Of a stretch of DNA of 64,000 bases, positions 6,197 to 42,220 are shown one piece after another. The stretch is taken from assembly GCA_963666055.2 (NCBI GenBank), contig CAXWPH010000013.1, forward strand, positions 15,406 through 79,405, read 5' to 3'. The DNA comes from Acidobacteriota bacterium (GTDB taxonomy: Bacteria > Acidobacteriota > UBA890 > WLXD01). Position numbers and translations under genes: made by a program. Each line of letters starts with the position of its first letter. Position 1 is the first letter of the stretch. The notes below the pieces were generated by a model. The model did no database searches. It was given only the letters and a program-made list of their open reading frames with translations, and had not been told where the DNA came from.

Positions 6197-6268
6197 AGGT
6201 GCTGCCTGCCGAGTTCGCATCTGACCCCGAGCGCCTCGCCCGCTTCGAGCAGGAGGCCCCGTGCCGCC
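6197..6268 (+). repeat. Internal fragment of the Ser/Thr kinase gene family ([20 protein letters not shown])
   Basis: Near-identical to the corresponding segment of the kinases at 9930-12557 and 33155-35854. Confidence 0.85.
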
Positions 6269-6422
6269 GGGATCGAGTTCAAAACAGCGCTCGACGGTTG
6301 TAATAGCCCTGCGTTTCGGTTTCAGTGCGCCTGTGTCACCGGCTCCCCTTGGCTCGCTGGTGGCGTTTCGAAGTCCGCGCCTTCGCGTTGGTCGCGGAAG
6401 CGCAGGTAAAAGGAGCGTCAGA

Positions 6423-6758
6423 ATGTCCGAACGTATCCTCTTAGCCCTGATCGTAGTCGTCGCGATCCTGGGAACCGTCCCGGCCATTGCCGAAGCGGCC
6501 CCGTATGCGGGACTCGCCCTCGTCGTCCTCGGTTTGGTTGCGGGTTTCATAGGCAGCGACAGCGCTGATGTCAACCAACGGACGGCGTTCTACGTCGTCG
6601 CCGTGGCACTCCCCGTGTTTTCCGACAGTCTGGACGCCATCGCTGTCGTCGGTCCCTGGGTCAATTCAGTTCTCGACGGCGTTGCGACCGGCATCCAGGG
6701 CATGGCCGTCGCGTTCGTGCTAATGCAGCTCAAGGTCAGGATCATGCCCGCCGCCTGA
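6423..6758 (+). CDS. Small multi-pass membrane protein (copy 1)
   Basis: AGGAG RBS; 111 aa hydrophobic; close paralog at 29915-30250. Confidence 0.75.
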   Translation: MSERILLALIVVVAILGTVPAIAEAAPYAGLALVVLGLVAGFIGSDSADVNQRTAFYVVAVALPVFSDSLDAIAVVGPWVNSVLDGVATGIQGMAVAFVLMQLKVRIMPAA

Positions 6759-7037
6759 TGGCGTAGCTCGGCGAACCCATGCCCCTCGGGAGGGCCTAGA
6801 TGGCGGCGCATCGGCACCCCGTTGGAGTTGAGCGTCCGGTGCATCTCCACGGCCCTAGCCCACCCTCGCCAGCCGAGCCACGTACCCCGCGTGGTGTTCG
6901 AAATCGTGACCGTGGGGCTACTACCTCCATTTCGCCACTGTTCGAGGTGCCTCCCCCGCCTCCGCCCCCGCCCCGTTGGTTCTCATCCGCTCTGGCGATA
7001 GGCTTCAGGCGCTCACCCACCCTGCTTCGAAAGCGCC

Positions 7038-7427
7038 ATGGACCCCGGCACCAAACTCGGCCACTACGAGATCCTGTCCCCGCTCGGTGAAGGCGGAATG
7101 GGGCAGGTGTATCGAGCACGCGACACGACGCTGGATCGTGATGTCGCCATCAAGGTGCTGCCGGAGGATTTCGCCAGCGACGCGAACCGGCTGGCTCGCT
7201 TCGAGCGCGAAGCCAAGCTGCTCGCCTCCCTGAACCATCCCAACATCGCCACGATCTTCGGCTTCGAGGAATCCGACGGCGTGCGCTTCATCGCCATGGA
7301 GCTGGTGGAGGGGCAAAGCCTCGCCGAGCGCATTGAAGCGTCTGGTCGCATCGAGGTCGATGAGGCGCTAGAGATCGCTCGCCGGATCGCACTGGCGCTC
7401 GAAGCCGCTCACGAAGCCGGCGTCATC
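7038..7427 (+). pseudogene. 5' fragment of a Ser/Thr protein kinase, truncated just before HRD
   Basis: [16 protein letters not shown]...AHEAGVI, then an abrupt junction with the 3' end of an opposite-strand gene. Confidence 0.9.
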
Positions 7428-8621
7428 GAAAGTCGCCTGGCGCGCTCGCGCTCCTCCATTTCGCTCCAGCTCACCTGGGCGGGCGGATGGAATGGGTTGG
7501 GCACATAACACGAGTCCTCAGGGACTGTTCTGCGGGCGATGCTGTCGAAGCCGGGGTTCGTATTGAACGAGTAGACCAGACCGTCGCTGTTGGCGCGTTC
7601 GGAGTGCCCTTGCCAGGTCGACGGGTCGAGGAAGTTGTCGTACACGGCGATGCCATCGAAGCCGGACTTGCGGGTGCGGTTCATGTTCAAGGAATCGGCC
7701 AGCATCGTCACCTGGTCGAATTCCCCTGCGAAACGCTCGCGGACGCCGTCGGTCTGCTGCTTCCAGATCTCGTCGGGGGTGTAGTCCGGTACGTCATGGA
7801 CGATGTCGTGGCAATCGGTGACCTGCGCTGCAACGATCGTGCGGAAAGACTTGAACACTGGCCCGACCTTGCCGTTGGCGTCGCGCAGTAGCAGAAATGC
7901 GTCCCAGCCCCGCCGTTCGCCGTACTCTTGGATCAGGTAGGTGATGTCGTCGAGATAACGGTGGGCACGATCGTGCCGATACGGTTCGATGTGGAACATC
8001 ACCTTGATGTCGTGATCGGCCATCACGTCCATCACGGCATGGGCGGACCCTCCGGAGAAGCTGTCGGCGCCCCACCAGCTCAAGTTCACGGCGCCCGCCC
8101 CGACTTCTTTGATCCAGCGTGCGTGCCGCTCGATCACCTTCCTGTTGCGGGAGCTGTAGGCTCCCAACTTTGGAACGCTGGTGGCGGCGAGGTCGTGCGG
8201 TGGGACGCGATCCCACTGCTGCCAGTGACGGAAAGGATCGTTGTTGTACCAGGGGTAGTACTCGAAGATGAAGTGGCGGTTCAGATCACCGCACCGTAGC
8301 TTCAGCAGCCGGCCGAACTCAGCCCACGGGAAGGCGACGCCGGCGCGCTTCGAGGGATCGGCAGCGAGGATGAGCCGCTGGAGGTCGGCGCCGCCATAGC
8401 GCAGCTCCATCTCCAACGAGGAAAAACCATGCCGCTCAAGCGCGGGGTCCGGAAGCCCCGTCAAACCGGCTGGCGTGTACGGTCCAGGCGTCGGTCCACT
8501 CCCCCCCCCCCCCAGCCGCCGGTAGAGACCGCGCCACCAGGCCACCGCCGAAGCCGAACGCGGCTGGTGCCGCGATCGCTCCGAGGCTGCCGAGCACGCG
8601 TCGTCGTGACCAGTCAATCAT
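7428..8621 (-). pseudogene. GH99-like (endo-alpha-mannosidase-like) glycoside hydrolase with Tat signal; frameshift at the homopolymer ~8500-8512; 3' truncated
   Basis: MIDWSRRRVLG Tat leader; FEYYPWY, PKLGAYSS, LSWWG, FHIEPY motifs. Confidence 0.65.
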
Positions 8622-9930
8622 GGGACAATTGAACCCTCTGACACGACCAAACGGCAAGTCTGTCCGGGGTCGCGCTGATTTCGCATCGGCGGCCTGGGAG
8701 GTCCCACTGGCCGTCCGGTGAGAAAAACGGGGAGCGTGGGAACTCAGAAAACAGGAGAGTGCTCTCTTGCTTGTCAAGCGAGCGGACGTATAGCTCGGGC
8801 TGGGCGCCGGCACTGCCCGTGACGTAGGCGATGTGTGTGCCATCCGGCGATAGGACAGCTCCCCCCCGATAACTTTGGTTGATGCCCTCTTCGGTGAGCC
8901 GCACCTTCAGGTGCATGGGGGGCGCAGGCGGCTGAGGATCTTGGCGCATCAAGGACCACATCGCCAGCGCCGTGACCGCGACCGCGCCAATTCCGATAGG
9001 TGTCGGGATGTAGCGTCGCCAGGAGGGCCGCACAGCCTCACCAGAGCCAGCATTCAGGCCGAGGCCCCCATCTGGATCGTTGATGGTATTAACGATGCCG
9101 ATACGGGCATCGGCGATGTCGTGGAGCCGCCGTTCAGGGTCCTTCTCTAGGCACTGTCGCAGAAGAAGCTGGATGAGCGGGGAGGTCGTCTCCGGCACCG
9201 CGATCCAGTCTGGCTCCTCTTTGAGGATCGCCGCCATCGTGTCGCTGACGGTCTTGCCGTCGAAGGCGCGCTTGCCGGCGAGCATCTCGTACAGCACACA
9301 GCCGAAGGCCCAGATGTCCGTGCGCTTATCGACGGGCTGACCCCGTGCCTGCTCCGGGCTCATGTAGGGAGCCGTACCCATGATCACGCCGGTGCCAGTG
9401 GCGGCCATCATCGTGGGTGAGTGGCTCAGATCCGACGACGGATCGCTGCCGTCCACTTCGTAGGCTTTAGCCAGCCCGAAGTCGAGCACCTTGACCGTGC
9501 CATCGGGTGACACCTGCACGTTGGCGGGTTTCAGATCGCGATGGATGACACCAGCCTCGTGAGCGGCTTCGAGCGCCAGGGCGATCCGGCGGCCGATCTC
9601 TAGCGCCTCATCGATCTCGATGCGTCCGGTGGCTTCAATGCGCTCGGCGAGGCTCTGCCCCTCGACCAACTCCATGGCGATGAAGCGCACTCCGTCGGAC
9701 TCATCGAACCCATGGATGGTGGCGATGTTGGGGTGATTCAGCGAGGCGAGCAGCTTGGCTTCACGCTCGAAGCGAGCCAGTCGGTTGGCATCGCTGGCGA
9801 AGTCCTCCGGCAGCACCTTGATGGCGACATCACGATCCAGCGTCGTGTCGCGTGCTCGGTACACCTGACCCATGCCGCCTTCACCCAGCGGGGACAGGAT
9901 CTCGTAGTGGCCGAGCGCCTTGCCGATCAT
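8614..9930 (-). pseudogene. Ser/Thr kinase-TM-PD40 protein, truncated after the second PD40 repeat
   Basis: Complete kinase domain (HRDLKPAN, DFGLAK, YMSPEQ), TM, then homology stops after PFFSPDGQW. Confidence 0.88.
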
Positions 9931-12557
9931 CAGGAGCCGCCTGTCGGCACCAGCCGCTTCAATTCCTCGAACCAGTTGACCAGAACCTGCAGCTTCGGCA
10001 CCGGGCCGTCCTTCACCATCAGGAACCTCTGTCCATCCGGGTAGACGTCGTAGTTGAAGGCCCAGTCGATGTATCCATAGCTATAGTCACCGCGAAAAAG
10101 CAGCTCGGGGTCGCCTGGGTTGAAGGTCGCGCCAGCCTCATAGGGGACGACCCACATTTCGTCATTGTTCCGGTAGAACAACTCCGCGCCGGCGCGCGAC
10201 CAGGCGGGCTCCTTGCCACCACCGATTGAAACCAGCACGGGCGCGCCGCCCTGCGGGTAAGGGACGACCCAAATCTGATCGAGCCCTGAGCGGTCGGAAG
10301 TGTAGGCAAGCCATCGGCCATCCGGGGAGAACTTCGCCCCGCGCTCGTTGTACTCGCCGACGAGGAATTCCTGCAGATCGTGTTCCTGGCCATCGCCCAT
10401 CGGCAGCAGGAGAACGTCCCGCTGATTGTTGGGACCTTGCTCGATAGCAAGAGTGCCGTCGGCGGACCAGGAACTCGGAATGGTGCGAACATTGCTCTCG
10501 AATGTCAGTTGTTCCACGCCCCCGCTTCCGTCGGCACGGACGCGAAACGTATTAATACCTGTGGGGGAGAAGGAAACAAAGGCGACCCATTCTCCATCCG
10601 GACTCCACACTGGCCAGGTTGCGAGCCCTGTGCCGGGGCGGTAGAGCGGTATACGGCGTCCACCAGCATCGAGATCAAGGCTGTAGATACCTGAGCCACC
10701 ACCCCGCGGAATGCGAGCGTACGCAACCCTGGAGCCGCTCGGCGAAAACTGTGGCTGCACCCATCCCGCGTCCTGCGCAGCATAAGCGGGCGTCGGGTTG
10801 CCATCGCGGTCCAACGTAACCAGCGATGATTCGACCAGTTGGGTCGCAGCCTCCAGATAGACGAGATGGCCACTGTCGGCCACCCCGTAATGCGCGCCGC
10901 CATAGAACACCCACTGCACTTCGGCCACTACCTCAACAGCATCGCCCAGCACATCTCCCGAGGCGATGTCGAAGGCCACCGCCGACAAGGCTCCGCCTCG
11001 CCGAAAGAGGAGATGCCCCGTTGACGTGTAGGCCGCCGCGGATCCGTCGAGCAAGATCGTCGTGATGCCATCGGCCAGTGAAAGGTGCGCCACCTGTGAG
11101 CGATCATCGCTGCCCCCCGAGATAGTGAACAAGATCGATTCTCCCCCGGGCAGGAAGTGAGGCCAGACATGGACCGTCCCCTCGTCTCCCGGGGGCACGG
11201 CGTAGATGATTTCGCCCTTCGGTCCCCAGGTCGCGCCCACCGCTTCAGGCGTTTCACAAATAGCCTCGCGCCTACCTCCCTGTATGGGGACTTTCCACAG
11301 CACACCTTGGGCATGGAAGCCGAGCCACTCGGAGTTGGGTGAGAAAAACTGATATTCGCCTCCCGTCGTCCCCTCGACTTCGTACACGTTCGGATGGTCC
11401 AGCGCGCGCGCGTAGATGACTTGGTTTCCCTCTCCGTTAACGCCCGTGTACGCGATGAACCGACCGTCAGACGACAGCGCCGAGGAGGCACCGACCGACA
11501 GGATGCCCGGCATCTCGACTTCGTAGTGTTCCGTGGGTAGGGGTGGCGGGGGTAGCGATTGCGCAAAGAACACGCCAGCGAGAGCGGCGAAGACACCGGC
11601 AACGGCCCATGGGAGCACACGCGCCCCTGAGACCACCCACGCAGGATCCGTTACCTCTGCCGTAGCGTCGTGCGCAGAACGTGCGGTGCCCGACTCCACC
11701 TCAAGGGCGATTGCCTTCAGGTCCACTGCGAGATCGCCGGCACCCTGGTAGCGACCACCGGGCTCCTTCGCCACGCTCTTTCGGATGATGCGTTGTAGCT
11801 CGTCGGGCAGTGACGGATCAGACTCCTGAATCGGCGTTGGGTCATCGTGTTGGATGTGTGCCAGCGTTTCGGCGATACTGCGACCGGCGAACGCCCGTAC
11901 ACCGCTCACCATCTCGTAGAGCACGCAGCCGAAGGCGAACAGATCGGCCCGATGGTCGATCTTGTCGGAGCCCTCCACCTGCTCCGGTGCCATGTAGCCG
12001 GCTGTACCCATCACCTGCCCGGCGACCGTCCCCATCATCGTGGGTGACTGCGTCGCACCGCCCGGTGAGCCTGCCCCCGCCACCTCGGTGAGCTTTGCCA
12101 GGCCGAAGTCCAGCACCTTGGCGTGCCCTTCCTTGGTGACGAAGATGTTCTCCGGCTTCAGATCCCGGTGGATGATCCCGGCAGCGTGAGCTGCCGCCAG
12201 TGCCTCGGCGATCTCGGTGGCCAACCCGAGCGCCTTCTTGAGCGGCAGCGCACCCTTCTGTAGCGGCTCCCGCAGCGTGTCTCCTTCCAGGTACTCCTGC
12301 ACCATGAAGTGGGTGTCGCCTTCGGTGCCGATATCGTGAACGACCGCGATGTGCGGATGGTTCAGGGCGGCGGCAGCACGGGCTTCCTGCTCGAAGCGGG
12401 CGAGGCGCTCGGGGTCAGAGGCGAACTCAGCAGGCAGCACCTTGATGGCCACCTTGCGGCCCAGGCGCGTGTCCTGCGCCAGGTACACCTCGCCCATGCC
12501 GCCAGCACCGAGCTGCTCGGTGATCTCGTAGGGGCCTAGTTTGGTGCCGGGTTCCAT
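9930..12557 (-). CDS. Ser/Thr kinase-TM-PD40/TolB beta-propeller protein
   Basis: [10 protein letters not shown] start, [20 protein letters not shown] repeats, [12 protein letters not shown] tail; apparent short internal deletion near 11190 relative to its paralog. Confidence 0.92.
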
Positions 12558-12887
12558 GGCGCTCCCGAAGCAGGGAGGGGGTGAGCGCCTGAAGCGTATC
12601 GCTGGAGGGGGCGAGATCCAACGAAGGCCGCGGATAGGGAGCGTTGCGCGCTCTACCGCCCGTATCCGTATCGAGCCGTCGTTGCCCTCACCCACTCTCG
12701 AGCGCCGGGAATCACAGCGCCCGCTGATCTCCGACCTGCCCGGCGGAGACACGCTCCCCGGCCGATCTCGCGCTCCATGTCCCCGCATTCAACGCTTCCG
12801 AGTGGTCACGGAGTCCCGGTGACTGAGTTCAACTCGGTGATGGCACTGCGTAAGAAGCTGCGGAAGCGGATATCGGTGCCGGCCTAG

Positions 12888-28928: not shown

Positions 28929-28987
28929 CTACGGGTCCGTCGGCACGAGCCGCTTTAGCTCGTCGAACCAGTTGGTGATCAGCGTCA
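28929..28987 (-). repeat. Kinase-family 3' end fragment ([18 protein letters not shown])
   Basis: Direct sequence match to the other tail copies. Confidence 0.88.
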
Positions 28988-29154: not shown

Positions 29155-29655
29155 ATGAAACTCATGGGGCGAATTGTATTGACGCTGGTGGTGCTGCTCG
29201 TTGGGCCCATGTCAGCGGTCAGTGATGAGGCGTCCATCCAGGTGGCCGACTCGGTCGAAGCGGTTCGGCAGATGTTCGTGGGCAATTACGAGCTCGTAGA
29301 ATACGAGTCGTTTCCGTCGCCTGGCGAGGTCGTTGCGCGGCACTATGTCGCTCGGATCATGTACGACGCCTACGGCAACATGGCGGCAATCGGCATGCCG
29401 AAAGACCTGCCAGAGCTCGACCGAGCGTCGGACGACGAACGGGCACGACGTGGCTTTGCCTATTTCGGCAAGTTCCAGATCAACATCGAGGAAGGCACCG
29501 TCACCCACCACTTGATCGGCTCGCCAGTAGCGGCGCGATCGGTGGGCGAGGGCTGGGTGCGGTATTACGAGTTCGACGGCGACCTGCTGACGCTGTCCAT
29601 CAAGAACGCTGAGGGTCGCATCACCGGCCAGCTAACATGGAAGAAGTTTGGATAG
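29155..29655 (+). CDS. Lipocalin-like domain protein, secreted
   Basis: FVGNYELV, IMYDAYGNM, FAYFGKF, VTHH, RYYEFDGDLLTL, LTWKK pattern. Confidence 0.75.
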   Translation: MKLMGRIVLTLVVLLVGPMSAVSDEASIQVADSVEAVRQMFVGNYELVEYESFPSPGEVVARHYVARIMYDAYGNMAAIGMPKDLPELDRASDDERARRGFAYFGKFQINIEEGTVTHHLIGSPVAARSVGEGWVRYYEFDGDLLTLSIKNAEGRITGQLTWKKFG

Positions 29656-29739
29656 GGCGGAGCCTAGGTGATCGTTCCTGGCGCTACGGACGAGCGGAAT
29701 CGAAGGTCGCTAGGCGGCTCGCGAGACTCGGCTACGACC

Positions 29740-29799
29740 CTACGGGTCCGTCGGCACGAGCCGCTTCAGCTCGTCGAACCAGTTGGTGATCAGAACCAC
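29740..29799 (-). repeat. Kinase-family 3' end fragment ([19 protein letters not shown])
   Basis: Direct sequence match to the other tail copies. Confidence 0.88.
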
Positions 29800-29914
29800 A
29801 TCGGTCTTCAGTCGAGACAGGTGTGGAGATACACCGGCCCCTCAACTCCAACGGGGTGCCGACGCGCCGCCACCTCGCCCCTCCTGAGGGACACGGGTTC
29901 GCCGAGCTACGCCA

Positions 29915-30431: not shown

Positions 30432-33155
30432 CTACCGGTCCGTCGGCACGAGCCGCTTCAGCTCCTCGAACCAGTTGGTGACCAGCGTCACATGGCCGCT
30501 GCCGGTCTGGCTCTGGCCGGCGTCGGGGAACATCACGAATTGCTGACCGTCGCCCGTCACGTCGTAGTCGGCATAACAACATCCACTGTTGATAGTCATT
30601 CCGTCTGGCCCGCCAAGAAAACTCCCCTCGAAAAGCTGCTCGGCTCTGCTGTAGGTGAAGGAATCACCTTCCGTCTCTACAGCAACCACCATGATCCCTG
30701 TATCGGTGCGGTAGAACAGCTCCCGACCGTCGGCTGACCATCTGGGCTGGCCGCCACCGCTGCTGGAGAGCTGCCACTTGCCCGGTCCAGGAGGATAGGG
30801 CCGGACATAGACTTCATTGCTTCCCGACTCGTAGGAGTCGTAAGCGATCCAGCGACCGTCCGGTGAGAAAGCCGACCACGCGTCGGTAGCATCGGTATTC
30901 ACAAAGACCTCCGGCTCCCGATCCTCCTCAAGCGGCAACACCAAAATGTCCCAGCCGGTCGTCTGTGGGTGATTCTCGCCGTATACGAGAAACCTGCCAT
31001 CCGCAGACCACGAATACAGCCACTGTCCCCTGTCGCTCTCTGTCAGCCGCTCCACAGTTCCCGATCCGTCGGCACGAGTCCGATAGATGTTCGTCGCTCC
31101 GTCGCGGTTCGACATGAATGCGAGAAACTGCCCGTCCGGTGACCAAACAGGTTCGTCGTCGTTCGCTTCATCAAACGTCAGCCTTGTCGGCACACCCCGC
31201 TGGATGTCATAGATCCATACGTCAGCGTTTTCGTTGACCAAGGCGCGCACGGCTAGCCGTGTGCCGCCCGGCGACAACCGAGGAGAACTGTAGGAGCCAG
31301 GCTCATCCCACAGCGGTGTCGCGTTGCCCTGCCGGTCTACCCATGCGACGGGATATGCCTCCTGAAGAACGGCCTCGCTCAGATACGCCAGCATTCCTGT
31401 ACTTGAGAAGCTGAACTGTGCGACAACCCCCCCCCAACCAAAGGTGGCAAGCCCCTGCACGATGGGTACCGGCTAGCCCTTCACCTCCAGCTCTCCCAGA
31501 TCAAACGCGACAGCAAACAGGGTTCCCTGGTTGTGATAGACGAGATGCCCCGTAGGTACGTAACGTCCTTGTCCGCCTTGCTGCACGACCCGTCGTTGTC
31601 TCGTCTCTAGATCCAGCACTTCGATGGCAGACGAATACGCTCCTGGCTCCCCGGCCAAGGAGGAGAACAGCACCGACTTGCCGTCAGGCAGCACCTGCGG
31701 GTCGTTGTGCCAGAGTTCCCCTTGATCGAGTTGAGTCAATGGTTCCGGTTCTCCCCCGCTGGCGGACACGCGGGAGAGGCCGGAGAAGGAGCCGATGATG
31801 ATCGTGTCGTCCGCCCCCCAGCTTCCCGTCAGGGTGCCAGAACCGAAGGAACTGATAGTCAGGGGGGTGCCGCCTATGACGGGGACTATCTTCAGTTCCG
31901 CGCCGCTGAAAAAACCTATCCACTGGCCGTCCGGTGAGAAGAATGGTGCCAATACAGAGCCAGAGACCAAGCGAACGCCCGCTAGCTGATCGAGCGAGCG
32001 AACGTATAGCTCCCTTCGGTCTACTCCGATACCCACGATGTAGACGATCTGTGTGCCATCCGGCGATAGGACAACTCCCTCAGAAGCCAAGCTAAGATCA
32101 TCATCGGCCAGCCTCACCTCCAGGTGCATGGGGGACGCAGGTGGCTGATGATTGTGATCTGTCAGGGTCCACGTCAAAAAGGTTGCCGCTGCGGCGATGG
32201 CGACGCCGAGACCGGCTGCCACAGGCATGGGGACGTAACGCCACCAAGACGGCTTTGCAGCCTCACCCGAGCCAACCGTCAGACCGAGGCCACCATCTAG
32301 GTCGTTGATGACGTAGACGATGCCGATTCGCGCATCAGCGATGTCGTGAAGACGGTCACGCGGTTCCTTCGTAAGACACCGGTCGAGAAGTCGTCGTAAT
32401 GCTCTCGGGGTAGCCGCCGGGAGCACTGCCCAGTCCGGCTCCGCCCTGAGAATCGCCGCCATGGTGTCGCTGACTGTCTTACCGTCGAAGGCGCGCTTGC
32501 CCACCAGCATCTCGTACAGCACGCAGCCGAACGACCAGATATCGCTACGCTTATCGACGGGCTCCCCCCGTGCCTGCTCCGGGCTCATGTAGGGAGCCGT
32601 GCCCATGATCACGCCGGTGCCTGTGGCGGCCATCATCGTGGGCGACTGGCTAAGGCCGGACGACGGCTCACTGCCTGCCGCTTCGTAGGCTTTGGCCAGC
32701 CCGAAGTCGAGCACCTTGACGGTGCCATCGGGTGCAACCTGGACGTTGGCGGGCTTCAAATCACGATGGATGACACCAGCCTCGTGAGCGGCTTCCAGTG
32801 CCAGGGCGATCCGTCGGGCGATCTCCAGTGCCTCATCTACGCCGATGCGGCCACTGGACTTGATGCGATCCGCGAGGTTGTCGCCCTCCACCAACTCCAT
32901 GGCGATGAACCGAACACCGTCCGATTCCTCGAAGCCGAAGATCGTGGCGATGTTGGGGTGGTTCAGTGAGGCGAGCAGCTTGGCTTCGCGCTCGAACCGG
33001 GCTAGTCGGTTGGCGTCGCTAGCAAAGTCCTCCGGCAGCACCTTGATGGCGACATCACGATCCAGCGTCGTATCGCGTGCTCGATACACCTGCCCCATGC
33101 CGCCTTCACCGAGCGGGGCGAGGATCTCGTAGTGCCCGAGCGTCTTGCCGATCAT
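30432..33155 (-). pseudogene. Ser/Thr kinase-TM-PD40 protein with an in-frame TAG at 31475-31473
   Basis: ORFs 31473..33155 and 30432..31460 share a frame (GGC TAG CCG GTA CCC ATC GTG; the paralog reads GSPIPV). Confidence 0.88.
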
Positions 33156-35854
33156 CAGGAGCCGCCCGTGGGCACTAGCCGGTTCAATTCCTCAAACCAG
33201 TTGAGCACAACGTTGAGTCGTGTGCTGGGTGCCGCGCCCCCGGTCTCATCACTACCAGCGGGCACCGTCACGAGGAACCTCTGGCCATCGGCGGTGACAT
33301 CGAAGTTGGACAGGGCCTGCATGACGATGTCCGAGACTTCGACAGGGTCGGATGCGGAAAACGACTCCAAATCCACTTCCGCAACGAGGATGCCTGGGCT
33401 GTTCCAGGATTCGTAGTAAATCTCCCTTCCATCCCGCGACCAGCGAGGCCACCAACCACCACGGGTACTCGTAGAGACCGGAAATGTCCGACCGCTCGAT
33501 ACCTCCCGCACGTACACCTCGAATTGCCCGGTCTCGTCGGAATGAAAGGCGAAGAAGCGACCGTCCGGCGAGAAACTGGCCCAAAACTCACTGGCGGCGG
33601 TATCGACGTGTATTTCCGTATCACCTGTATCGAGAGCCAGTATCCCCAGGTCGATCTGATTTTCGGGCCCGCTGCCAAACAGCAGCATCTCACCGTCGTC
33701 CGAGATCGATATCGGGTACACGTCAGCCTCTGTATCCAACACCAGCTCGGCGTCGAGACTCCGGTCAGCCCGGCGCTTGAAGATGTCGTTGTTGCCGCCC
33801 CGATCCGACCTGAAGAAGACCCACTGTCCATCGGGCGACCAAACGGGCACTTCGTTGTTGCCCTCCGTGTTCAGCAGCACCTGGCTGCCCCCTCGTTCGA
33901 TCTCGTAGATCCAGATGTCCCAGTCCCCATCATTTCCCTGGATTTGGAGCGCGATGCGCTGGTCATCCGGCGAGAGGCCCAAGTACTGAGACCGACGGGG
34001 CTCGAAGGGCAGCGGCTCGACTTGGCCGTCACGATCCACCCAGACGAGTAGGGAACTGCCCGAAGCGCCGCCATTCCTCATGTGATAGACGAGCATCCCG
34101 GTCTCGGAGAAGTCGAACGAGACCCCGCCTTCAACGTCGGCGGCGAGGTTCTCGACCACGGGTATCGGCGAGCCGGTCGTCTCCAGGGTATCGAGGTCGA
34201 AGGGCACCGCGAACAACGCTCCGGCGTTTGAATACACCAGATGGCCCGTTGGCACGTATCGGCCGTAGGTGCCGCCCTGGTGCACGACCTGGCGCTCGCC
34301 GGTCTCGAGATCTACGACCTCGAGGTTGGCCCTGTCGAAACCTCCGGTCTCGGTCGAAGTGAATAGCACTGCCTTTCCGCCGGGTAAGAACTGGGGCCAG
34401 CGGTGGCTGCGCTCGCCCTCTGAAAGCTCGGTGAGCAGTCCCGGCTCACCTTCGACAGCCGACACGAGAAACAGGCCGCTGTTGACGTTGGGTGTGAAGA
34501 CGATCGTATCGTCGGGCCCCCAATCCGCACCTCGGCTCCTGTCCACCGGCGCGATCGACTGCGGGGTGCCTCCAGTTACGGACGCCTTTTTCAGCTCCGA
34601 AATGGTGACGAACCCTACCCACTGCCCGTCGGGCGAGAAGAAGGGATGGTACGGCGCACCCAGGATGGTTGCCGAGGACGCGAGTGTCGTCGAGTCCTGC
34701 TGGTCGAGAGCGCGAAGGTACAGCGTGCTTCCACCGTCCGGGTCACCCTCGACGTAGGCAACGCGCCGTCCATCGGGCGATAGCACGACTGCGGAGCCGG
34801 GCCCACTCAGGATCGTGTCGACGAGGGGGTCGAGCTGCAGGCGGATGGTGTTTCCGGGCTCCGGTTGCATTGCCCACCAGGTGGCAAGAACCGCCAGAAG
34901 GGCGCTGGCCACAGCTATCGGGACGCCCAGCTTCCACGAGATGCCGCGTGTCGTTTCCACGGCGACAGGGGGTGTCGGAAGCGCCGCTCCTGACTCCACG
35001 TCTGTACCGAGCGCCTGTATGTCGACGACCAGATCGCCGGCTGTCTGGTAACGCTTGGCCGGCTCCTTCGCGAGTGCCTTGCGGACGATCCTCTGCAACT
35101 CTATCGGCAACGACCGGTCGATCTCCCCAATCGCTGGCGGCTCATCGGACAGGATGTGCGCCAAGGTCTCGTGGACGTTCTTCCCGCCGAATGCCTGCCT
35201 GCCCGTGACCATCTCATAGAGCAAACAGCCGAAGGCGAACAGGTCGGCTCGATGGTCGATCTTGTCGGAGCCTTCCACCTGCTCTGGGGCCATGTAGCCG
35301 GCGGTGCCCATCACCTGACCGGCCACCGTGCCCATCATCGTGGGTGATTGAGTTGCACCGCCCGGTGAGCCTGCCGCCACCTCGGTCAGCTTCGCCAGGC
35401 CGAAGTCCAGCACCTTGGCGTGGCCCTCCTTGGTGACGAAGATGTTCTCCGGCTTCAGATCCCGGTGGATGATGCCGGCGGCGTGAGCAGCAGCCAGCGC
35501 CTCGGCGATCTCGGTGGCTAATCCGAGCGCCTTCTTGAGCGGCAGCGCACCCTTGCCCAGCGGCTCCCGAAGTGTGTCTCCCTCCAGGTACTCCTGCACC
35601 ATGAAGTGGGTGTCGCCTTCGGTGCCGATATCGTGAACGACCGCGATGTGCGGGTGGTTCAGCGCGGCGGCAGCGCGGGCCTCCTGCTCGAAGCGGGCCA
35701 GGCGCTCGGGGTCAGAGGCGAACTCGGCGGGCAGCACCTTGATGGCTACCTTGCGACCCAGGCGGGTGTCCTGGGCCAGGTACACCTCTCCCATGCCGCC
35801 CGCACCGAGCTGCTCGGTGATCTCGTAGGGGCCTAGTTTGGTGCCGGGTTCCAT
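33155..35854 (-). CDS. Intact Ser/Thr kinase-TM-PD40/TolB beta-propeller protein
   Basis: 899 aa; all kinase motifs, TM, PD40 repeats, [12 protein letters not shown] tail. Confidence 0.93.
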
Positions 35855-36025
35855 GGCGCTTCCGATGCGGGGTAGGGGAGTGCCTGAAGCCTATCTCTGG
35901 GGCAGTCGAGGGTCCACGGGGCAGGCAGGATGGCACCTGCTCTCAGACGACCTCCATGCCCACGCCAGGGGGCGGGGGTATCAGGAATCCCGCCGGTCGG
36001 TAACCCGCTCAGAGACGACCCTGAG

Positions 36026-37231
36026 TCATTGCGGGATCTCGCTCGTCGAACACAATATGCTGGCCGCTCTGGGACCAATGGGAATGGTCGGAGCCGGCGC
36101 ACCGAACTGTGACTCAACCCAGATACACACCAGATCGCGTAACACGTCTCTACCGTTATCGCTGTTCGTCAACATGACGATCGCCCGTCGTCTGTGTGGG
36201 GCGGATACGAATAGCGCTCGCCATCCAAAGTTTGATCCACCGTGGTTTGCGCTCCGCACACCCTCGGCTCCCAGCGGGCCGGTCATGTAGCCGAGGCCAC
36301 TTTGTGCGGTGCCGTCATGGATGGAAACAGGTTGGTACATTGAGGCGATGGTCTCGCGTTCGAGGACGCCGCGCCCCGGGGCGGCCCGGTTCGGACCAAC
36401 CATGCTGGCGGCCACGAATCGGGCCAGATCGGTGACAGTCGTGTAGAGACCGGCACCAGCCGTTCCGGCAAAGCGATAGGTCGGATGTGTCTCGCCCGAC
36501 GACCGGTGCGGGGACGCCATCGGGGCGAGTGACTCGTCCCAACCAAATCGGCTACTGGTCATGCCGAGTCGATCGAGAATTTCGCGTTGCATATATTCAG
36601 CGAACGTGGTGCCCGTTACTTCTTCGACAAGCAGCTGGAGTAGTACGAAACCGCCCCCGGAGTAACGGAATCCCTGTCCCGGCTCTTGAATCTGGACAAC
36701 CGGTGATCCCCCGCTGGCATATACGCTACCCGTGTAGTCGCCCAACAGTTTCTGCTTGAGGGTCGGGAGCGGCGCAGGGACTGCAAATCCCGGAATGCTT
36801 GGCATCGACAGACCGGCCGTGTGACTCAGGAGACGGCGCACCGTCACTTCATCACTGTCGAACGCCGAATCCGGGAGGCGCCAACGACTGAGGAACGCGG
36901 CTACCGGCCGGTCGAGATCGAGTTTCCCTTGCTCCACCAGATTCATGACACCCCACGCCGTGACGGTCTTGGAGATCGACCCGGCGTTGAAGATCGTCTC
37001 CGCAGCGATGACGGGATCTTCTGCATCGGCGACTCCGAAGCCTTTCGCCCAAATCGCCGCGCCCTCCTCGACGATCGCAACGGCCGCTCCCACGACATTG
37101 TGGCGCTCCAGCGCATCCGGTATCGCCGCCACGAGTGTCGCTTGGGTGTCCGGTGGATCCTGCACGAAACCCGAGGCCGTTATCGATTGGGGAGACCACA
37201 CCAACCAGAGACCGATAACGAGCGCACTCAA
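36026..37231 (-). CDS. Serine hydrolase, beta-lactamase class C-like
   Basis: SISK (SxxK), LLSHTAG, YSGGG, HGGSN; start uncertain. Confidence 0.85.
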   Translation of the reverse strand: MSALVIGLWLVWSPQSITASGFVQDPPDTQATLVAAIPDALERHNVVGAAVAIVEEGAAIWAKGFGVADAEDPVIAAETIFNAGSISKTVTAWGVMNLVEQGKLDLDRPVAAFLSRWRLPDSAFDSDEVTVRRLLSHTAGLSMPSIPGFAVPAPLPTLKQKLLGDYTGSVYASGGSPVVQIQEPGQGFRYSGGGFVLLQLLVEEVTGTTFAEYMQREILDRLGMTSSRFGWDESLAPMASPHRSSGETHPTYRFAGTAGAGLYTTVTDLARFVAASMVGPNRAAPGRGVLERETIASMYQPVSIHDGTAQSGLGYMTGPLGAEGVRSANHGGSNFGWRALFVSAPHRRRAIVMLTNSDNGRDVLRDLVCIWVESQFGAPAPTIPIGPRAASILCSTSEIPQ

Positions 37232-37297
37232 TCAAAAGACTCCGTATGAACGAGAAACGGGGTTGAGTTTTCATCGGCCACGATCGGATCGTCGCGC

Positions 37298-37948
37298 CTA
37301 TCCGAGGCCCGCAAGGGTTTGCCCTAAACGGATCACCGGCAAGATGAACACCCGTAAGGCGCCGAGCCATATCAGCGCGATCAGGATGAAGAAGCCGTAT
37401 GGCTGTATGGAGCGGTAGAACCGCGCCACCGAGCCGGACAGCGTCGCCGAGAGGATCCACGAGCCGTCCAGCGGCGGAATCGGGATCATGTTGAAGGCGG
37501 CCAGCAGCAAATTGATCAGCAAGGAAGCCACCAGCAACTGCAGGACTGGCAGAAACACGCTTGCTGAGACAAGGCCGACGAGCACTTCCTGGTTGGCACG
37601 CATCAAACGTATCAAGAACACGCAAATCACCGCTAAGAGCACGTTGCTCAGCGGCCCCGCGGCGGCAATCCAGGCGTGATCTCGCTTCGGACGGAGCAGG
37701 TTGGCCGTATTGACCGGCACCGGCTTCGCAGCACCGAACGGTGGCAGCCCGGCGAAGATCATCATGGCCGGGAACAAGATCGTCATTATCGGATCGATAT
37801 GGGCGAGCGGGTTCATGGTCACTCGGCCAAGCATCCGTGCCGTCGGGTCGCCGAGTCGGTCGGCCGACCAGGCGTGCGCCGACTCGTGAAACGAGATCGC
37901 GAACAGCAGCGCGACGATCTGGGTGACGATGAGGCCGGCTCCCTCCAT
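37298..37948 (-). CDS. Site-2 protease (M50 family)
   Basis: HESAH, AGPLSN, FNMIPIPPLDG. Confidence 0.92.
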   Translation of the reverse strand: MEGAGLIVTQIVALLFAISFHESAHAWSADRLGDPTARMLGRVTMNPLAHIDPIMTILFPAMMIFAGLPPFGAAKPVPVNTANLLRPKRDHAWIAAAGPLSNVLLAVICVFLIRLMRANQEVLVGLVSASVFLPVLQLLVASLLINLLLAAFNMIPIPPLDGSWILSATLSGSVARFYRSIQPYGFFILIALIWLGALRVFILPVIRLGQTLAGLG

Positions 37949-38109
37949 AGTGTGATGCTATCCCGCCGGTCTGGTCGGTGCTAGAACGTCGCGGATCGAC
38001 CCGGCGAGGTTGATGCCGACGACCTCGGCCAATTCCGCCTCTGAGGCCCGGCGCACCCCGGCAAGGGACCCGAACCTACGAAGCAAAGCGCGTTGGCGCT
38101 TCGGTCCGA

Positions 38110-38400
38110 GTCGAACCAGTTGATGACCAGCGTCACCGTGCCACTGCTGATCTGGCGTTGGTTAGTGTCAGGGAACATCACGAAACGCTGACCGTCGGCA
38201 GCAACGTCGGCGTCAGAGGCAAACTCGGCAGGCAGCACCTTGATGGCGACATCACGATCCAGCGTCGTATCGCGTGCTCGGTACACCTGCCCCATGCCGC
38301 CTTCACCGAGCGGGGCGAGGATCTCGTAGTGGCCTAGTTTGGTGCCGGGTTCCATGGCGCTCCCGAAGCATGGTGGCTGAGCGCATGAAGCGTATCGTCA
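38110..38400 (-). pseudogene. Collapsed kinase gene: leader plus first ~48 codons joined in frame to ~35 near-terminal codons
   Basis: [10 protein letters not shown]...[11 protein letters not shown]|[14 protein letters not shown]...VTLVINWFD. Confidence 0.88.
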
Positions 38401-38636
38401 GGCCATGCGAAGGTCCACGGGGCGCGAAGCCACCCGCTATACGTCAGTCCGCACATCAGAGATGCTCCGTCGGATCCACGGCGGAGAGCGTCTGGGAGTT
38501 GTCCCGCAGCGAATCCCTTGAGGAGCCCAACGATCGGTGGTTGTATCCAGGCGTCCCGATACTGACCAAGCCAAGAGCCTGACTCGACCAGGGTTATCTC
38601 GGAAATCCCGGGAGGTAGACCGTGGCTGGAGGATCG

Positions 38637-40436
38637 ATGACGGAAACCAGGCCCGGGCTGTGGATCCTTTTGCTGGCGAGCCTGAGCGTATCGGCTTGTC
38701 AGCCGTCAACGCAGGACGCGTCGCCAGGCGATGCTGCCAGCCCTGCCGATTTGGTGCTGCAGGGCGGTAAGTTCTTTACCGTCGACGAAGCCCAGGTCTG
38801 GGCTGAAGCCGTCGCGATCAAGGACGGCAGGTTCGTCTACGTAGGCGACAACGCTGGTGCACAGAGCTTCGTTGGCCCCGATACCGATCGCCATGACCTC
38901 GGCGGCAAGCTGGCAATTCCCGGTCTAGTGGATTCCCATACACACCCAGGTCTGATGGGGCGGGAGACGGCCGGGTTTACCGCGGTCCCCGTGGGTGGTG
39001 GTCCCAGAGGGACGCTGCCCAGGGACGGGAACAAGGAGGAGATCCTCGCTGCGGTGGAGGCGTATGCCCAAGCCAACCTGGACCTTGCCTGGATCGAGAT
39101 GGGTAGCTGGTCCGGGGATCTGAACGGCGTCGCGGGCCCACATAGGAGAGATTTGGATCGCGTCGTACCGGATCGACCAGTGATGTTAGGAAGCGTCCAT
39201 AGCCTTTGGGTCAATTCCGTGGCGCTTGAGATGATGGGGGTCGACAGCACCACACCCGATCCGGTACCCGGTCTTGCATACTTCGTACGAGATGCCGATG
39301 GTGAGCCTACCGGCTGGATCAAGGAATATGCCATCTGGCCCTATGCGCAGCACCTTACTGACGTTGACCTGGAGTCCAACAAGGAGGGTATTGTCACCTT
39401 CTTGGAGTACCTGTCACGCCACGGCGTTACCTCACTCTTTGACGCTGGCAACTTCAACTACCACGATCTCACGTACTCGTTCCTGGCTGAGCTAGAGGCG
39501 GCCGGTCGTCTGCCGGTTCGCTACGAGGGCAGCTATCACATCTTCTTGCCCGATCATGTGCCCGATGCGATCGATGAGCTACAGCGGCTGCGCCGCACCT
39601 ACGGCAGCGAACGTCTACGGTTCAATACCATCATGATTCACTTGGACGGCACCAATGAGATTCGTACCGGCGCGGTGCTCGAGCCGTACAGCGATGACCC
39701 GGGCAACCGGGGCACGACCCTGCTCGACACCGAGGAACTGCGTGACTTCATCGTGCAGCTTCACGAAGCCAGGATCGATCTGCACATGCACATCGTGGGC
39801 GACCGGGGCGTGCGCATCGCACTGGATGCGGTGGAAGCAGCGCGCAGGTCGGTCGACGGCGAACTGTATCCACGCGTCACCCTGTGTGAGCTGGACATCA
39901 TCGATACGGCTGACTACCCCCGTTTCAAACAGCTGGGTGTCATTGCCAACTACACGCCCCAGTGGCACGGCCTGGGAAACCGACTGCCGTTGACCGCCGG
40001 TACCCTTGGCCCCCGCTTCGAAAGAATGTTGCTGGTGCAACCGTTACTGGATGACGGCGCGGTGGTGGCCTTCTCCAGCGGCGTGACATCGTTCAGGGCA
40101 ATGGAGCGGGCCAACCCTTACCTGGGGATGCAGATCGGCCACAACCGCCAATACCATCAACAAGGTGAGGCTGCGCCGATAAGGCTGCCGATGAGCGAAC
40201 GCCTGGACCTGGAGGATCTGGTCCAGGGATATACCTTGAGCGGCGCCTATCAGTTGCGTATGGAGGAGCAGCTTGGCTCAATCGAGGTAGGCAAGCTCGC
40301 CGACCTGGTCGTGTTGGATCGCAACCTGTTCGAAATCGATCGCTACGAGATCCACGAGGTTCGACCCGAAGCGGTCATCATGGACGGCGAGATCATCAGG
40401 GGAAGCTTAGACGGTGGCGCGGAGATGAGGCCATAG
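38637..40436 (+). CDS. Amidohydrolase 3 (YtcJ-like) lipoprotein
   Basis: VSAC lipobox, PGLVDSHTH, HMHIVGD, GSIEVGKLADLVVLD. Confidence 0.88.
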   Translation: MTETRPGLWILLLASLSVSACQPSTQDASPGDAASPADLVLQGGKFFTVDEAQVWAEAVAIKDGRFVYVGDNAGAQSFVGPDTDRHDLGGKLAIPGLVDSHTHPGLMGRETAGFTAVPVGGGPRGTLPRDGNKEEILAAVEAYAQANLDLAWIEMGSWSGDLNGVAGPHRRDLDRVVPDRPVMLGSVHSLWVNSVALEMMGVDSTTPDPVPGLAYFVRDADGEPTGWIKEYAIWPYAQHLTDVDLESNKEGIVTFLEYLSRHGVTSLFDAGNFNYHDLTYSFLAELEAAGRLPVRYEGSYHIFLPDHVPDAIDELQRLRRTYGSERLRFNTIMIHLDGTNEIRTGAVLEPYSDDPGNRGTTLLDTEELRDFIVQLHEARIDLHMHIVGDRGVRIALDAVEAARRSVDGELYPRVTLCELDIIDTADYPRFKQLGVIANYTPQWHGLGNRLPLTAGTLGPRFERMLLVQPLLDDGAVVAFSSGVTSFRAMERANPYLGMQIGHNRQYHQQGEAAPIRLPMSERLDLEDLVQGYTLSGAYQLRMEEQLGSIEVGKLADLVVLDRNLFEIDRYEIHEVRPEAVIMDGEIIRGSLDGGAEMRP

Positions 40437-40524
40437 CGGCAGCTGCGGCTTCGTGCGCGCGTGGGCACAGTTCGGAACGTCACACTAGTCGGGTGACGCT
40501 CCTGCGCGACGATAGCCAACGGCG

Positions 40525-40662
40525 CTACGGGTCCGTCGGCACGAGCCGCTTCAGCTCGTCGAACCAGTTGGTGACCAGCGTCACCATGCCCGTCTGGGTG
40601 TCCTGGCCGGGGTCGGGGAACATCACGAACCGCTGACCGTCACCCGTCACGTCGTAGTCTGA
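40525..40662 (-). repeat. Kinase-family 3' end fragment ([16 protein letters not shown]...[14 protein letters not shown])
   Basis: Closely matches the 3' end of 30432-33155. Confidence 0.9.
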
Positions 40663-40681
40663 CGCGTTCAGACCGGCGACT

Positions 40682-41822
40682 TCACCTCGGCTCCCCCCCC
40701 CCCGCTTCGGCGGTCTCACGTTCCTGCGCCCGCGCCCCGAGAAGCACATTGGACAGCGCGTAGTTGGCTTCGTGGCAGGCGTATTCGTATACCAGATCAG
40801 GCAGTGCCTTGAACGGCACCTGAGCAGTCCATGGCCTCGAGTAGAAGGCGGGATCGTCGATGGTGAACTCGTAGTTGATGGTGTGCTCATCGACGCGCGT
40901 GAGGCGTTCGGTCACCTTGAAATCTTCCGACCCGCCAGCAAAGTTAGTGTTTCCGTTGAGCTGCTGGCGCGGCAGATTTGTCGTCTCCACCACCAGCGTA
41001 TCTCCTTCCCAACGGCCCCACGAGTCGCCCAACCACGGACGGATGTGCGCTGGCAGCGGCGTAGGCTCGCCCAACTTGATGATGCGAGCGTCGTGCACCA
41101 TTTCGGTCATGACCATCACGTGATCGGCGGTCTGAACGATGGTGTAGTTGTTGTTGTAGAAGTAGTTGGGGATCATCGGCGGGCCGGCGTTGGAGCCGAA
41201 CGAAAGTAAGCAGCGCAAGGCAAGCGAGAGATTCTCCGGATTGTCGTAATTCGCCAAACTGGGCCCGCTGTTGCGCCAGCTCGCTGCGCGCCTTTTCTCC
41301 CTCGGGGCTCAACGGTGGGATACGCCCGTCCGGCGGGTCCACCACCAACGAGCTGCGTGGCTCGCCGTTCCAGATCGCCACCCGATCGCCCGGGTCCAAG
41401 TAGAAGATGTTGTAGGCACCGGCTCCCCCGAAGGGCGGATCATAGAGCGCCGAGATCTTATCGTAGAGCGCCGAGGCCTCATTCTCGAGCGAATCGCCCC
41501 AGGGTACCCCCCCCACCGCCGGTGCCTCACGGTCGGGGTCGCTGTCCGCCAAGTGGGTATCGATGAACGTCGCTCGGTCGCCCTCGAGGGCAGCGACTTG
41601 TTCCGGCGCCATCACACGCTCGTATCCCGGCGGACGCTCGATCCGCGTCATCGTCGCGTTGGTCCAGTTACCCTGCAGATCCGGATGGCCGTCGGGTGTC
41701 CGTGGCAGGACCCAGGCCTCGGTGGCGGCGTCCTGTGTCTGCGTCAGGGCCGGCAACGCCAGGCCAAGCGCCAGCACGGCACAAGCGAGGCCCGCTAGCG
41801 CGCTGCGAGTCGCGATCCTCAT
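40682..41822 (-). pseudogene. Secreted hypothetical protein (PDLQGNW...GDSWGRWEGDTLVVET...EYACHE family), frameshift ~41255
   Basis: Two overlapping ORFs join into one recognisable conserved protein. Confidence 0.75.
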
Positions 41823-41834
41823 CTGTTTCCCCTA

Positions 41835-42050
41835 TTAACCAATCGGGTTCTTGCGCAGATGCCCGTACAGTAGCTCCTCGACGAACTCCACGCACTTGAA
41901 CTGACCGAGGCGGGCGTCCGGGTCGATATTGCGGTACAACGGCAGGCGGATCGTCCACGGACGCGAGAACGTCTCGGGATCTTCGATAGTGGCCTCGTAC
42001 CAGATGTCGTCGGGGCTCGCCATCTCGTACCGCTCGGTTACCGTCATCGC
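41835..42050 (-). pseudogene. 3' fragment of a related secreted protein
   Basis: TERY...YEATIEDPETFSRPW; 5' part replaced by a kinase fragment. Confidence 0.65.
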
Positions 42051-42052
42051 CG

Positions 42053-42220
42053 CACCTTGATGGCTACCTTGCGGCCCAGGCGCGTGTCCTGCGCCAGGTA
42101 CACCTCGCCCATGCCGCCAGCGCCGAGCTGCTCGCTGATCTCGTAGGGGCCTAGTTTGGTGCCGGGGTCCATGGCGCTGCCGATGCGGGGTGGGTGAGCG
42201 CCTGAAGCCTATCGCCAGAG
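42053..42220 (-). repeat. Kinase-family leader plus first 40 codons ([10 protein letters not shown]...VAIKV)
   Basis: Near-identical to the starts at 12557 and 35854. Confidence 0.9.

What the first reader, a model, noticed from the sequence alone, without database searches (positions are those of the whole stretch)
6197..42220. Kinase-gene ends used as cassette borders: hollowed 'kinase shells' carrying unrelated cargo
Seen: at least 12 short pieces of one Ser/Thr kinase-PD40 gene family, almost always from the extreme ends. 5' or kinase-domain pieces lie at 6197, 7038, 22263, 27457, 38355 and 42172. NWF(D/E)[12 protein letters not shown] tails lie at 20260, 24586, 28929, 29740, 38110 and 40525. 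In three cases a 5' and a 3' piece are co-oriented like one gene with its interior swapped: 42220->40525 encloses a secreted protein plus a gene stub, 27500->24586 encloses a spermidine dehydrogenase-like gene, and 38400->38110 is empty. Many other cargo genes in the region (globin, TPR, lipocalin, Vgb, GH99, amidohydrolase) also lie next to such pieces, and most are exported proteins. Inference: conserved ends of a large paralog family serve as recombination anchors (for example homology-facilitated illegitimate recombination) for capturing and shuffling genes. This would be integron-like without attC sites or a dedicated integrase, with the kinase leader possibly supplying the promoter.
Basis: partly seen in the sequence, partly recalled or inferred. 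Interest (0 to 1): 0.85.

Follow-up and report, generated by a model that had tools for sequence, protein, structure and literature searches.

The report
Kinase gene ends as gene-swap anchors
In one genus of Acidobacteria, about two hundred stubs of a repeated kinase gene sit in same-direction arrays between unrelated genes, and the same stub-plus-gene modules recur beside different neighbours and in different species, so the conserved gene ends likely act as shared recombination landing pads that move genes across species without an integrase.

Summary
Observation confirmed and much larger than the window. The genome holds 233 kinase–PD40 loci (29 full-span). 199 lie in 31 arrays covering 498 kb. 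Adjacent pieces are co-oriented in 113 of 132 cases. Three congeners show the same arrays, and short-read contigs bridge window junctions, so misassembly is unlikely. The anchor idea is supported. Base-exact kinase|cargo junctions recur at loci with unrelated outer flanks (25 of 32 pairs). Identity drops inside the stub at varied positions. Synteny with congeners breaks across stubs in 15 of 20 tests, against 6–8% at random array sites and 41% at gene boundaries. Modules are 94–99% identical between species whose one tested core locus is 80% identical. The 'hollowed shell' picture is mostly wrong: 5'→3' pairs are not enriched, and heads and tails behave as independent one-sided anchors. One true two-anchor cassette was found, outside the window. 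New junctions carry about 0–10 nt of microhomology and can capture the genome's own core DNA (M50, GH99). Best reading: repeated homology-facilitated illegitimate recombination on a dispersed paralog family. DNA entry route, first-capture step and promoter function are untested.

The parts
6197..6269 (+). internal kinase piece, gene nt +116..+190, joined to cargo
6272..6850 (+). cargo, small membrane protein; second copy (93%) at 29823-30401 with different junctions
6972..7427 (+). 5' anchor: leader plus nt +1..+387 (B-like head)
7428..8702 (-). captured 1275-nt copy (99.5%) of the genome's own GH99 locus (C2:110917-112190); both ends joined to broken kinase 5' pieces through 2-3 nt microhomology
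8703..9931 (-). long 5' piece of B-type kinase (nt +3..+1237), start overlapping the A-gene stop
9930..12632 (-). full A-type Ser/Thr kinase-TM-PD40 gene with leader
19666..20223 (+). cargo, globin
20238..20328 (+). 3' tail anchor
20455..22104 (+). cargo, TPR-like exported protein
   Evidence: weak TPR_16 hit
22241..22364 (+). 5' anchor: leader plus 20 codons
24586..25161 (-). 3' piece, about 190 aa of propeller plus tail
25382..27455 (-). cargo, FAD oxidoreductase (31-member family); the same head|cargo junction at +91 occurs at G000 C15:1362238 (92%) and G002 C9 ~1412.9 kb (96%)
27457..27500 (-). 44-nt leaderless head remnant
27596..28639 (+). cargo, Vgb-lyase-like beta-propeller (far below the resistance-gene cut-off)
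28929..28987 (-). 3' tail anchor
28988..29734 (+). cargo, lipocalin module; tail plus module shared with G000 C8:38001 (94%), G002 (94%) and G003 (96%), homology ending in the tail
29740..29804 (-). 3' tail anchor
30432..33155 (-). full-span B-type kinase-PD40 gene, one frameshift near 31460
33155..35929 (-). full A-type kinase-PD40 gene (899 aa) with leader; reference for piece coordinates
36026..37231 (-). cargo, serine hydrolase of the beta-lactamase fold (below all beta-lactamase cut-offs)
37232..38109 (-). captured 878-nt copy (99.3%; CDS identical) of the core uvrC-M50-scpA region (C12:45562-46439)
38110..38209 (-). truncated tail piece (+2553..+2664)
38206..38423 (-). 5' anchor: leader plus 50 codons, fused to the tail piece
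38505..40438 (+). cargo, amidohydrolase; 93-96% copies next to tail pieces in G003 and G004
40525..40659 (-). 3' tail anchor with the conserved ~30-nt post-stop motif
40681..42048 (-). cargo, one contiguous foreign fragment (gene stub plus frameshifted exported protein), 83% to the operon at C12:404482-405846
42049..42248 (-). 5' anchor: leader plus about 40 codons

Best explanation
The conserved ends of a young, multi-copy kinase-PD40 gene family form arrays of stubs that likely serve as interchangeable homology anchors, so that incoming DNA carrying a stub plus a cargo gene would cross over into any other stub or full gene and join at its far end through a few bases of microhomology. Each round keeps the anchor, replaces what lies on one side of it and shortens the kinase remainder. 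That would yield short end-biased stubs, co-oriented strings, and modules of one anchor plus 0.5-5 kb of cargo. Two anchors exist: the ~75-nt leader with the first codons, and the last ~20 codons with ~30 nt after the stop. They act independently; double-anchor cassettes form only occasionally. Because the anchors are more alike between species than the core genome is, the arrays would be a channel for gene flow across the genus. SHOWN: anatomy, co-orientation, shared base-exact junctions with unrelated outer flanks, identity switches inside anchors at varied positions, microhomology joints, cross-species near-identity. INFERRED: RecA-type crossover in the anchor, the order of events, erosion by repeated rounds. 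UNTESTED: entry by natural transformation (ComEC and DprA present), first capture of anchor-less DNA by end joining (Ku and LigD present) or template switching, and transcription from the leader.
For: Same junction, different outer flank in 25 of 32 pairs; 3 of the 7 exceptions are one 13-kb inverted duplication on C8. Synteny with congeners breaks across end stubs in 15 of 20 testable cases, against 17/264, 21/256 and 17/311 random array positions and 66/160 gene boundaries (Fisher p=0.007 against gene boundaries). A 3.2-kb module 99.8% identical at C6 and C15 begins inside the leader and ends at an arbitrary point. One junction carries a B-type head in G000 and an A-type head with leader in G002. 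Identity runs end at -42..+140 in 8 head pairs and +2631..+2723 in 10 tail pairs. Junction overlaps are about 0-10 nt by eye in the alignments. One 9.2-kb core locus is 92/80/80% identical to G002/G003/G004, yet modules are shared with G003 at 95-96% and between G003 and G004 at up to 99.2%; the first 60 aa of the A-type kinase are 100% identical in all four genomes. Co-orientation 113/132 in G000 and 52/57, 14/16, 20/22 in congeners.
Against: Only 20 element sides of 133 stubs could be tested, since I held 1.6 Mb of three congeners chosen around kinase hits, and pairs that share a module are not independent. Gene boundaries in the arrays also break often (41%), and 199 of 277 shared-segment ends lie away from any kinase piece, so much array turnover does not use these anchors. 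Anchors of 45-150 nt at 85-95% identity are short for RecA (recalled). HFIR alone does not explain how anchor-less core DNA (M50, GH99) was first captured. ComEC and DprA are common in bacteria (10 of 14 control genomes over cut-off) and do not prove competence. G007 has a similarly large family (66 head matches) but 0 short heads and 0 lone tails in 200 kb examined, so family size alone is not enough.
Confidence: 0.62

Rival explanations
1. Passive decay with promoter capture. Kinase genes in genomic islands are destroyed by deletions and insertions; leaders survive because they drive the next gene and tails are simply the most detectable remnant. The stubs take no part in later movement.
For: Junctions are ordinary microhomology joints. 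The gene after a leader stub is co-oriented in 40 of 58 cases, and four in-frame head-cargo fusions of 450-843 aa clearly use the kinase start codon. Several arrays lie within 2 kb of a tRNA gene. Propeller divergence hides internal pieces.
Against: It does not predict identical junctions at unrelated loci with homology ending in the stub, nor head-type switches at one junction. Tails have no evident promoter role yet behave the same way. Most other large families leave almost no stubs.
Confidence: 0.13
2. Intragenomic ectopic recombination and gene conversion among stubs (with circles or template switching) do the shuffling; transfer between species is by whole islands, phage or conjugation, independent of the anchors.
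For: Several shared modules are within G000 (C6/C14, C6/C15, C8/C13). Captured M50 and GH99 are 99%+ copies of own DNA. Integrase and primase-helicase remnants flank the window array.
Against: Cross-species shared tracts are mostly single modules of 0.5-5 kb that end in a stub, not long island blocks.
Confidence: 0.15
3. A dedicated site-specific system (integron-like or HUH-type) recognises a site in the leader or the post-stop motif.
For: The leader has a near-invariant 21-nt block and the tail a conserved ~30-nt post-stop motif. The genome has many tyrosine recombinases.
Against: Crossover positions are spread over about 180 nt in heads and 90 nt in tails. No hairpin better than shuffles in 6 folds. 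No IntI over cut-off. No Rfam match other than tRNA-Sec. Both motifs are almost confined to kinase context.
Confidence: 0.06
4. Assembly chimerism at repeats produced the patchwork.
For: The assembly has frameshifts in many kinase copies, a 13-kb 99.9% inverted duplication on C8 and an 8-kb overlap between C13 and C6.
Against: The same base-exact junctions occur in separately assembled congeners. Short-read contigs span 27277-28954 in three runs from two studies, 38012-38258 in one run and 40555-40892 in another.
Confidence: 0.02

Closest known systems
Homology-facilitated illegitimate recombination (HFIR), and the Vibrio cholerae T6SS effector-immunity arrays and Rhs orphan strings proposed to grow by it (PMC5361080, passages read; PMC2884548, passages read)
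   Same: One conserved anchor plus an illegitimate far end; successive rounds build arrays of displaced remnants; no integrase.
   Different: There the anchor is at a fixed locus and the cargo is one functional class. Here the anchor is a dispersed family of about 200 stubs in 31 arrays, both gene ends serve, the cargo is unrelated, and modules cross between species about 80% alike at a core locus.
Staphylococcus aureus lpl tandem paralog cluster (PMC2568036, passages read)
   Same: A 132-nt conserved stretch of paralogs (mean 88% identity) is the crossover site at varying positions, and the unit of evolution lies between anchors rather than being an ORF.
   Different: lpl shuffles halves of the same family within one locus, with little exchange between loci or species reported. 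Here the units are foreign genes moving between loci and species, and the paralogs are destroyed.
Integrons / CALIN arrays (defining features recalled)
   Same: Co-oriented strings of repeats separating single accessory genes; possible promoter donation.
   Different: No IntI over cut-off, no attC-like hairpin, no fixed crossover; cargo is often truncated, antisense or multi-gene.
Gene gain by homologous recombination at flanking persistent genes / replacement islands (PMC12359135, passages read; PMC4033161, search listing only)
   Same: Integrase-free gene gain through conserved flanks.
   Different: Flanks there are single-copy core genes that fix the locus; here they are multi-copy accessory stubs that allow any-to-any movement.
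Expanded Ser/Thr kinase paralogs of Acidobacteria (Solibacter; PMC3174227, passages read)
   Same: Large kinase families occur in the phylum; kinase-propeller relatives were found in 80 loci, mostly Acidobacteriota.
   Different: Those paralogs are described as mostly under 50% identical and ancient; the passages read mention no stubs. Here copies are young and the ends are homogenised.

Membership tests
Integron / CALIN | IntI-type integrase | tested here: not met
   TIGR02249: 23 tyrosine-recombinase matches, none over cut-off; best 149 bits against 265, with a stop
Integron / CALIN | attC-like imperfect hairpin at cassette borders | tested here: not met
   6 folds of leader and tail regions, z from -0.57 to +2.0; no Rfam match
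Integron / CALIN | fixed crossover position | tested here: not met
   identity-run ends spread -42..+140 and +2631..+2723 in 18 pairs
HFIR-built arrays | homologous anchor on one side of the moved segment | tested here: met
   25 of 32 shared-junction pairs have unrelated outer flanks; 15 of 20 synteny breaks
HFIR-built arrays | short microhomology at the illegitimate end | tested here: met
   about 0-10 nt overlaps in junction alignments where both parents could be found; read by eye, no shuffle control
HFIR-built arrays | RecA dependence and uptake of external DNA | not testable with these tools
   ComEC and DprA present; competence not shown
Double-crossover cassette ('shell') exchange | 5' and 3' anchors move together with the cargo | tested here: inconclusive
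   met for one cassette (head +99 | 800 nt | tail) at C6, C14 and G002; not met for the window's 27500 and 42220 shells; 5'>3' order not enriched
NHEJ capture of DNA at breaks | Ku and LigD present; inserts with 0-4 nt joints at both ends | tested here: inconclusive
   Ku and LigD lie 2 kb apart on C3; the GH99 insert has 2-3 nt joints at both ends; template switching is not excluded
CRISPR self-targeting as source of breaks | spacers matching kinase genes or arrays | tested here: not met
   24 spacers of the C15 array, no convincing match in G000 or the congener loci held
sigma-70 promoter in the leader | -35/-10 consensus match | tested here: inconclusive
   two conserved blocks 17 nt apart in 46 of 54 short stubs, but not flagged by the E. 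coli-type scan

The most novel reading that the evidence does not exclude
A genus-wide, integrase-free gene-exchange network: homogenised ends of a signalling-gene family are kept as universal landing pads and portable promoters, letting species about 20% apart in core DNA swap single accessory genes and duplicate their own core genes under a shared promoter. It would be the functional equivalent of an integron built entirely from host recombination and the debris of a paralog family.
Probability: 0.35. Interest if true: 0.85.

Novelty: new variant of a known kind. Interest (0 to 1): 0.68.

Why it matters
HFIR is known mainly from laboratory transformation and is invoked for single loci. Here about 9% of a genome looks shaped by it, with countable junctions, crossover points and cross-species modules, which makes its natural role directly testable. 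It offers a route round the sequence-divergence barrier to recombination: a conserved multi-copy anchor lets accessory genes cross between species whose core DNA is too different. It also warns that such arrays are invisible to integron and IS finders and will be annotated as pseudogene debris. No description was found in 8 literature searches of the open library; subscription papers and supplements were not seen.

Tried and rejected
Shell pairing as the general unit: rejected (congeners gave 5'>3' 16, 3'>5' 15, 5'>5' 22, 3'>3' 4). Integron or attC: rejected. CRISPR self-targeting: no spacer match. NucS-driven breaks: only a marginal 42-position hit; MutS homologs present. ComM-like hit lies in a 158-aa frame, not followed up. 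Expression: no RNA holder listed, which is no evidence either way. Joints had 20-26 letters on the short side and come from paralogs or other organisms; ignored. The M50/beta-lactamase-fold junction at 37231 is crossed by only 30 letters, one short of the tool's bridging rule. One search was noisy because reference flanks carried a REP-like repeat and neighbouring tails; it was redone, and 19 of 252 loci under 77% identity were dropped. Spread beyond the genus: short heads or lone tails were 2 and 1 in 1.29 Mb of 80 distant loci, 0 and 0 in G007, 5 and 1 in G012, 2 and 0 in G005, against 17 and 19 in 462 kb of G000 and 37 and 52 in 1.6 Mb of congeners; loci were hand-picked from hit lists and distant heads often missed the identity filter, so this is a sample, not a census. 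Three look-ups of earlier scan findings returned nothing. The original HFIR paper (PMC122324) was not held.
Full report
What is there. The window is G000:C13:15406-79405 of a 5.73-Mb, 15-contig genome. Relatives of its kinase are mostly Acidobacteriota. The family is an N-terminal Ser/Thr kinase, a hydrophobic segment and PD40/TolB-like propellers. Two subtypes often form an overlapping pair: A, preceded by a conserved ~75-nt leader, and B, whose start overlaps A's stop.

Scale. Mapping 24 full-span copies back on the genome gave 252 loci: 29 full-span, 106 5'-anchored, 70 3'-anchored and 47 internal. After dropping 19 loci under 77% identity, 233 remain; 199 fall in 31 arrays spanning 498 kb. 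5' pieces mostly begin at -75..-60 and end at scattered points; 74 of 87 that end within the first 800 nt end at or before +200. Paralog identity is 65-82% across most of the kinase domain but 41-59% in the propeller, so the 5' bias is real while internal propeller pieces are under-counted. Of 18 other large families, 16 leave at most 9 short free pieces against 115 here; two outliers were not resolved. Neighbouring pieces share a strand in 113 of 132 cases, against 57% for genes 2.5 kb apart and 68% for adjacent genes.

Not an artefact. 1.6 Mb fetched from three congeners around kinase hits shows the same co-oriented stub arrays. Short-read contigs span window 27277-28954 in three runs from two studies, 23483/23608-24638 in three runs, 38012-38258 in one and 40555-40892 in another. 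The sister species G002 has 7.8 kb and no kinase piece between the PCMT-like gene and tRNA-Sec, where G000 has 46 kb.

Shells are not the unit. Orders of co-oriented neighbours were 5'>5' 29, 5'>3' 20, 3'>3' 13, 3'>5' 11. The window's 27500 head plus oxidoreductase recurs at G000 C15 and in G002 with other downstream DNA. The 38400 'empty shell' is an internal deletion whose cut tail is joined to a copy of core DNA. The 42220 shell does enclose one contiguous foreign fragment, 83% like an operon on C12, but no near-identical copy was found in the five genomes of the genus. One true two-anchor cassette (head +99, 800 nt, tail) sits at C6, C14 and in G002 with different neighbours.

Anchors are used. 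Comparing all broken ends, 32 pairs share a junction to within one base; in 25 the DNA beyond the stub's outer edge is unrelated, and 3 of the 7 exceptions are one inverted duplication on C8. These pairs are not independent. In a controlled test that left out that duplicate, synteny with congeners broke across the stub in 15 of 20 testable element sides (from 133 stubs), against 17/264, 21/256 and 17/311 random array positions and 66/160 gene boundaries (p=0.007 against gene boundaries). Alignments show identity that is near-perfect on the cargo side and falls to paralog level inside the stub, including a B-head/A-head switch at one junction. The switch points are spread, -42..+140 in heads and +2631..+2723 in tails, which fits homologous and not site-specific exchange. 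Against this, 199 of 277 ends of shared segments lie away from any kinase piece: far ends are expected to, but other turnover clearly also occurs.

Across species. A 9.2-kb core locus is 92% identical to G002, 82% to G001 and 80% to G003 and G004. Stub-plus-cargo modules are 94-96% identical between G000 and G003 and up to 99.2% between G003 and G004. The window's lipocalin module is one of them. The first 60 residues of the A kinase are identical in G000, G002, G003 and G004, and in 7 full congener genes the first 200 nt and the last ~60-90 nt are 82-95% identical to the best G000 copy.

New junctions. Where both parents could be found, overlaps were about 0-10 nt by eye. Cargo includes recent copies of the genome's own DNA: 1275 nt of the GH99 locus (99.5%) and 878 nt of the uvrC-M50-scpA region (99.3%, CDS identical). 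These donors have no anchor, so a separate capture step is needed. Ku and LigD are present, which makes end joining a candidate; template switching is not excluded. ComEC and DprA are present.

Promoter. The leader has two conserved blocks 17 nt apart in 46 of 54 short stubs but is not flagged by the E. coli-type scan; promoter status is inference. The next gene is co-oriented in 40 of 58 leader stubs against 11 of 21 leaderless ones. At least four long in-frame head-cargo fusions exist. Gene calls are my own codon-model calls. No RNA data were available.

Range. In hand-picked loci the pattern is strong in the genus, slight in G012 and G005, not seen in G007 despite a large family, and nearly absent from 80 distant loci.

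Comparison with known systems. The closest mechanism is HFIR as proposed for Vibrio T6SS arrays and Rhs strings (PMC5361080, passages) and described in PMC2884548 (passages). The S. aureus lpl cluster shows crossovers in a 132-nt conserved paralog stretch (PMC2568036, passages). Gene gain through recombining core flanks is covered in PMC12359135 (passages). Kinase expansion in Solibacter is described as ancient and divergent (PMC3174227, passages). It works like an integron in layout but fails the three integron tests made. Eight searches of the open library found no report of this arrangement; supplements were not read.

Verdict. Real, genus-wide, and best explained as repeated one-sided homologous plus illegitimate recombination on the ends of a dispersed kinase family (0.62). 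The chemistry is probably known; the use of a paralog family's two ends as genome-wide, cross-species landing pads for unrelated genes is a new variant. Interest 0.68.

Noticed in passing
window 42751-50783; G000 C6:1-8030: Contig C6 starts with an 8-kb 99.9% copy of this stretch up to tRNA-Sec and then continues into DNA syntenic with G002. Window 50800-64000 is therefore probably an extra element integrated at tRNA-Sec in part of the population, or an assembly branch.
   Followed up: partly
window 58370-63188: Qat anti-phage system: QatA, an unassigned 279-aa gene in the QatB position, QatC and QatD, inside the extra element.
   Followed up: partly
window 13200-19626 and 48088-55007: Remnants of satellite-like elements: DnaB-N/AAA_25 primase-helicase genes and tyrosine integrases; the ORF at 18157-19626 is an integrase N-terminal part fused in frame to PD40 repeats.
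   Followed up: no
window 31426-31473: The frameshift splitting the B-type kinase may be an assembly error or a variant: one run's contig has an extra base near 31426, another run's does not.
   Followed up: partly
G000 C8:29538-42541 and 53958-66961: 13-kb 99.9% inverted duplication at a contig end, possibly an assembly artefact; it double-counts about six kinase loci.
   Followed up: partly
G000 C10:8305-10836, C15:414881-417403, C15:525600-528032; G002 C9 ~1410.4 kb: A sulfatase-like cargo occupies the A-gene position: kinase leader and first ~25 codons in front, and in several copies its stop overlaps a B-type head as the A gene's does.
   Followed up: partly
window 6854-6922 and 42281-42350: A ~65-nt intergenic repeat also seen after some tails and before leaders; it may be a further anchor.
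   Followed up: no
G000 C15:336112-337911: CRISPR array with 25 repeats; no spacer matched the genome or the congener loci held.
   Followed up: yes
G000, many contigs: A ~35-nt REP-like repeat, often as inverted pairs about 250 nt apart, in dozens of copies (seen as noise).
   Followed up: no
G000 C5:65608-65720: ARAGORN calls a tRNA-Pyl-like sequence inside a kinase array, overlapping a free copy of the post-stop motif; probably spurious.
   Followed up: no
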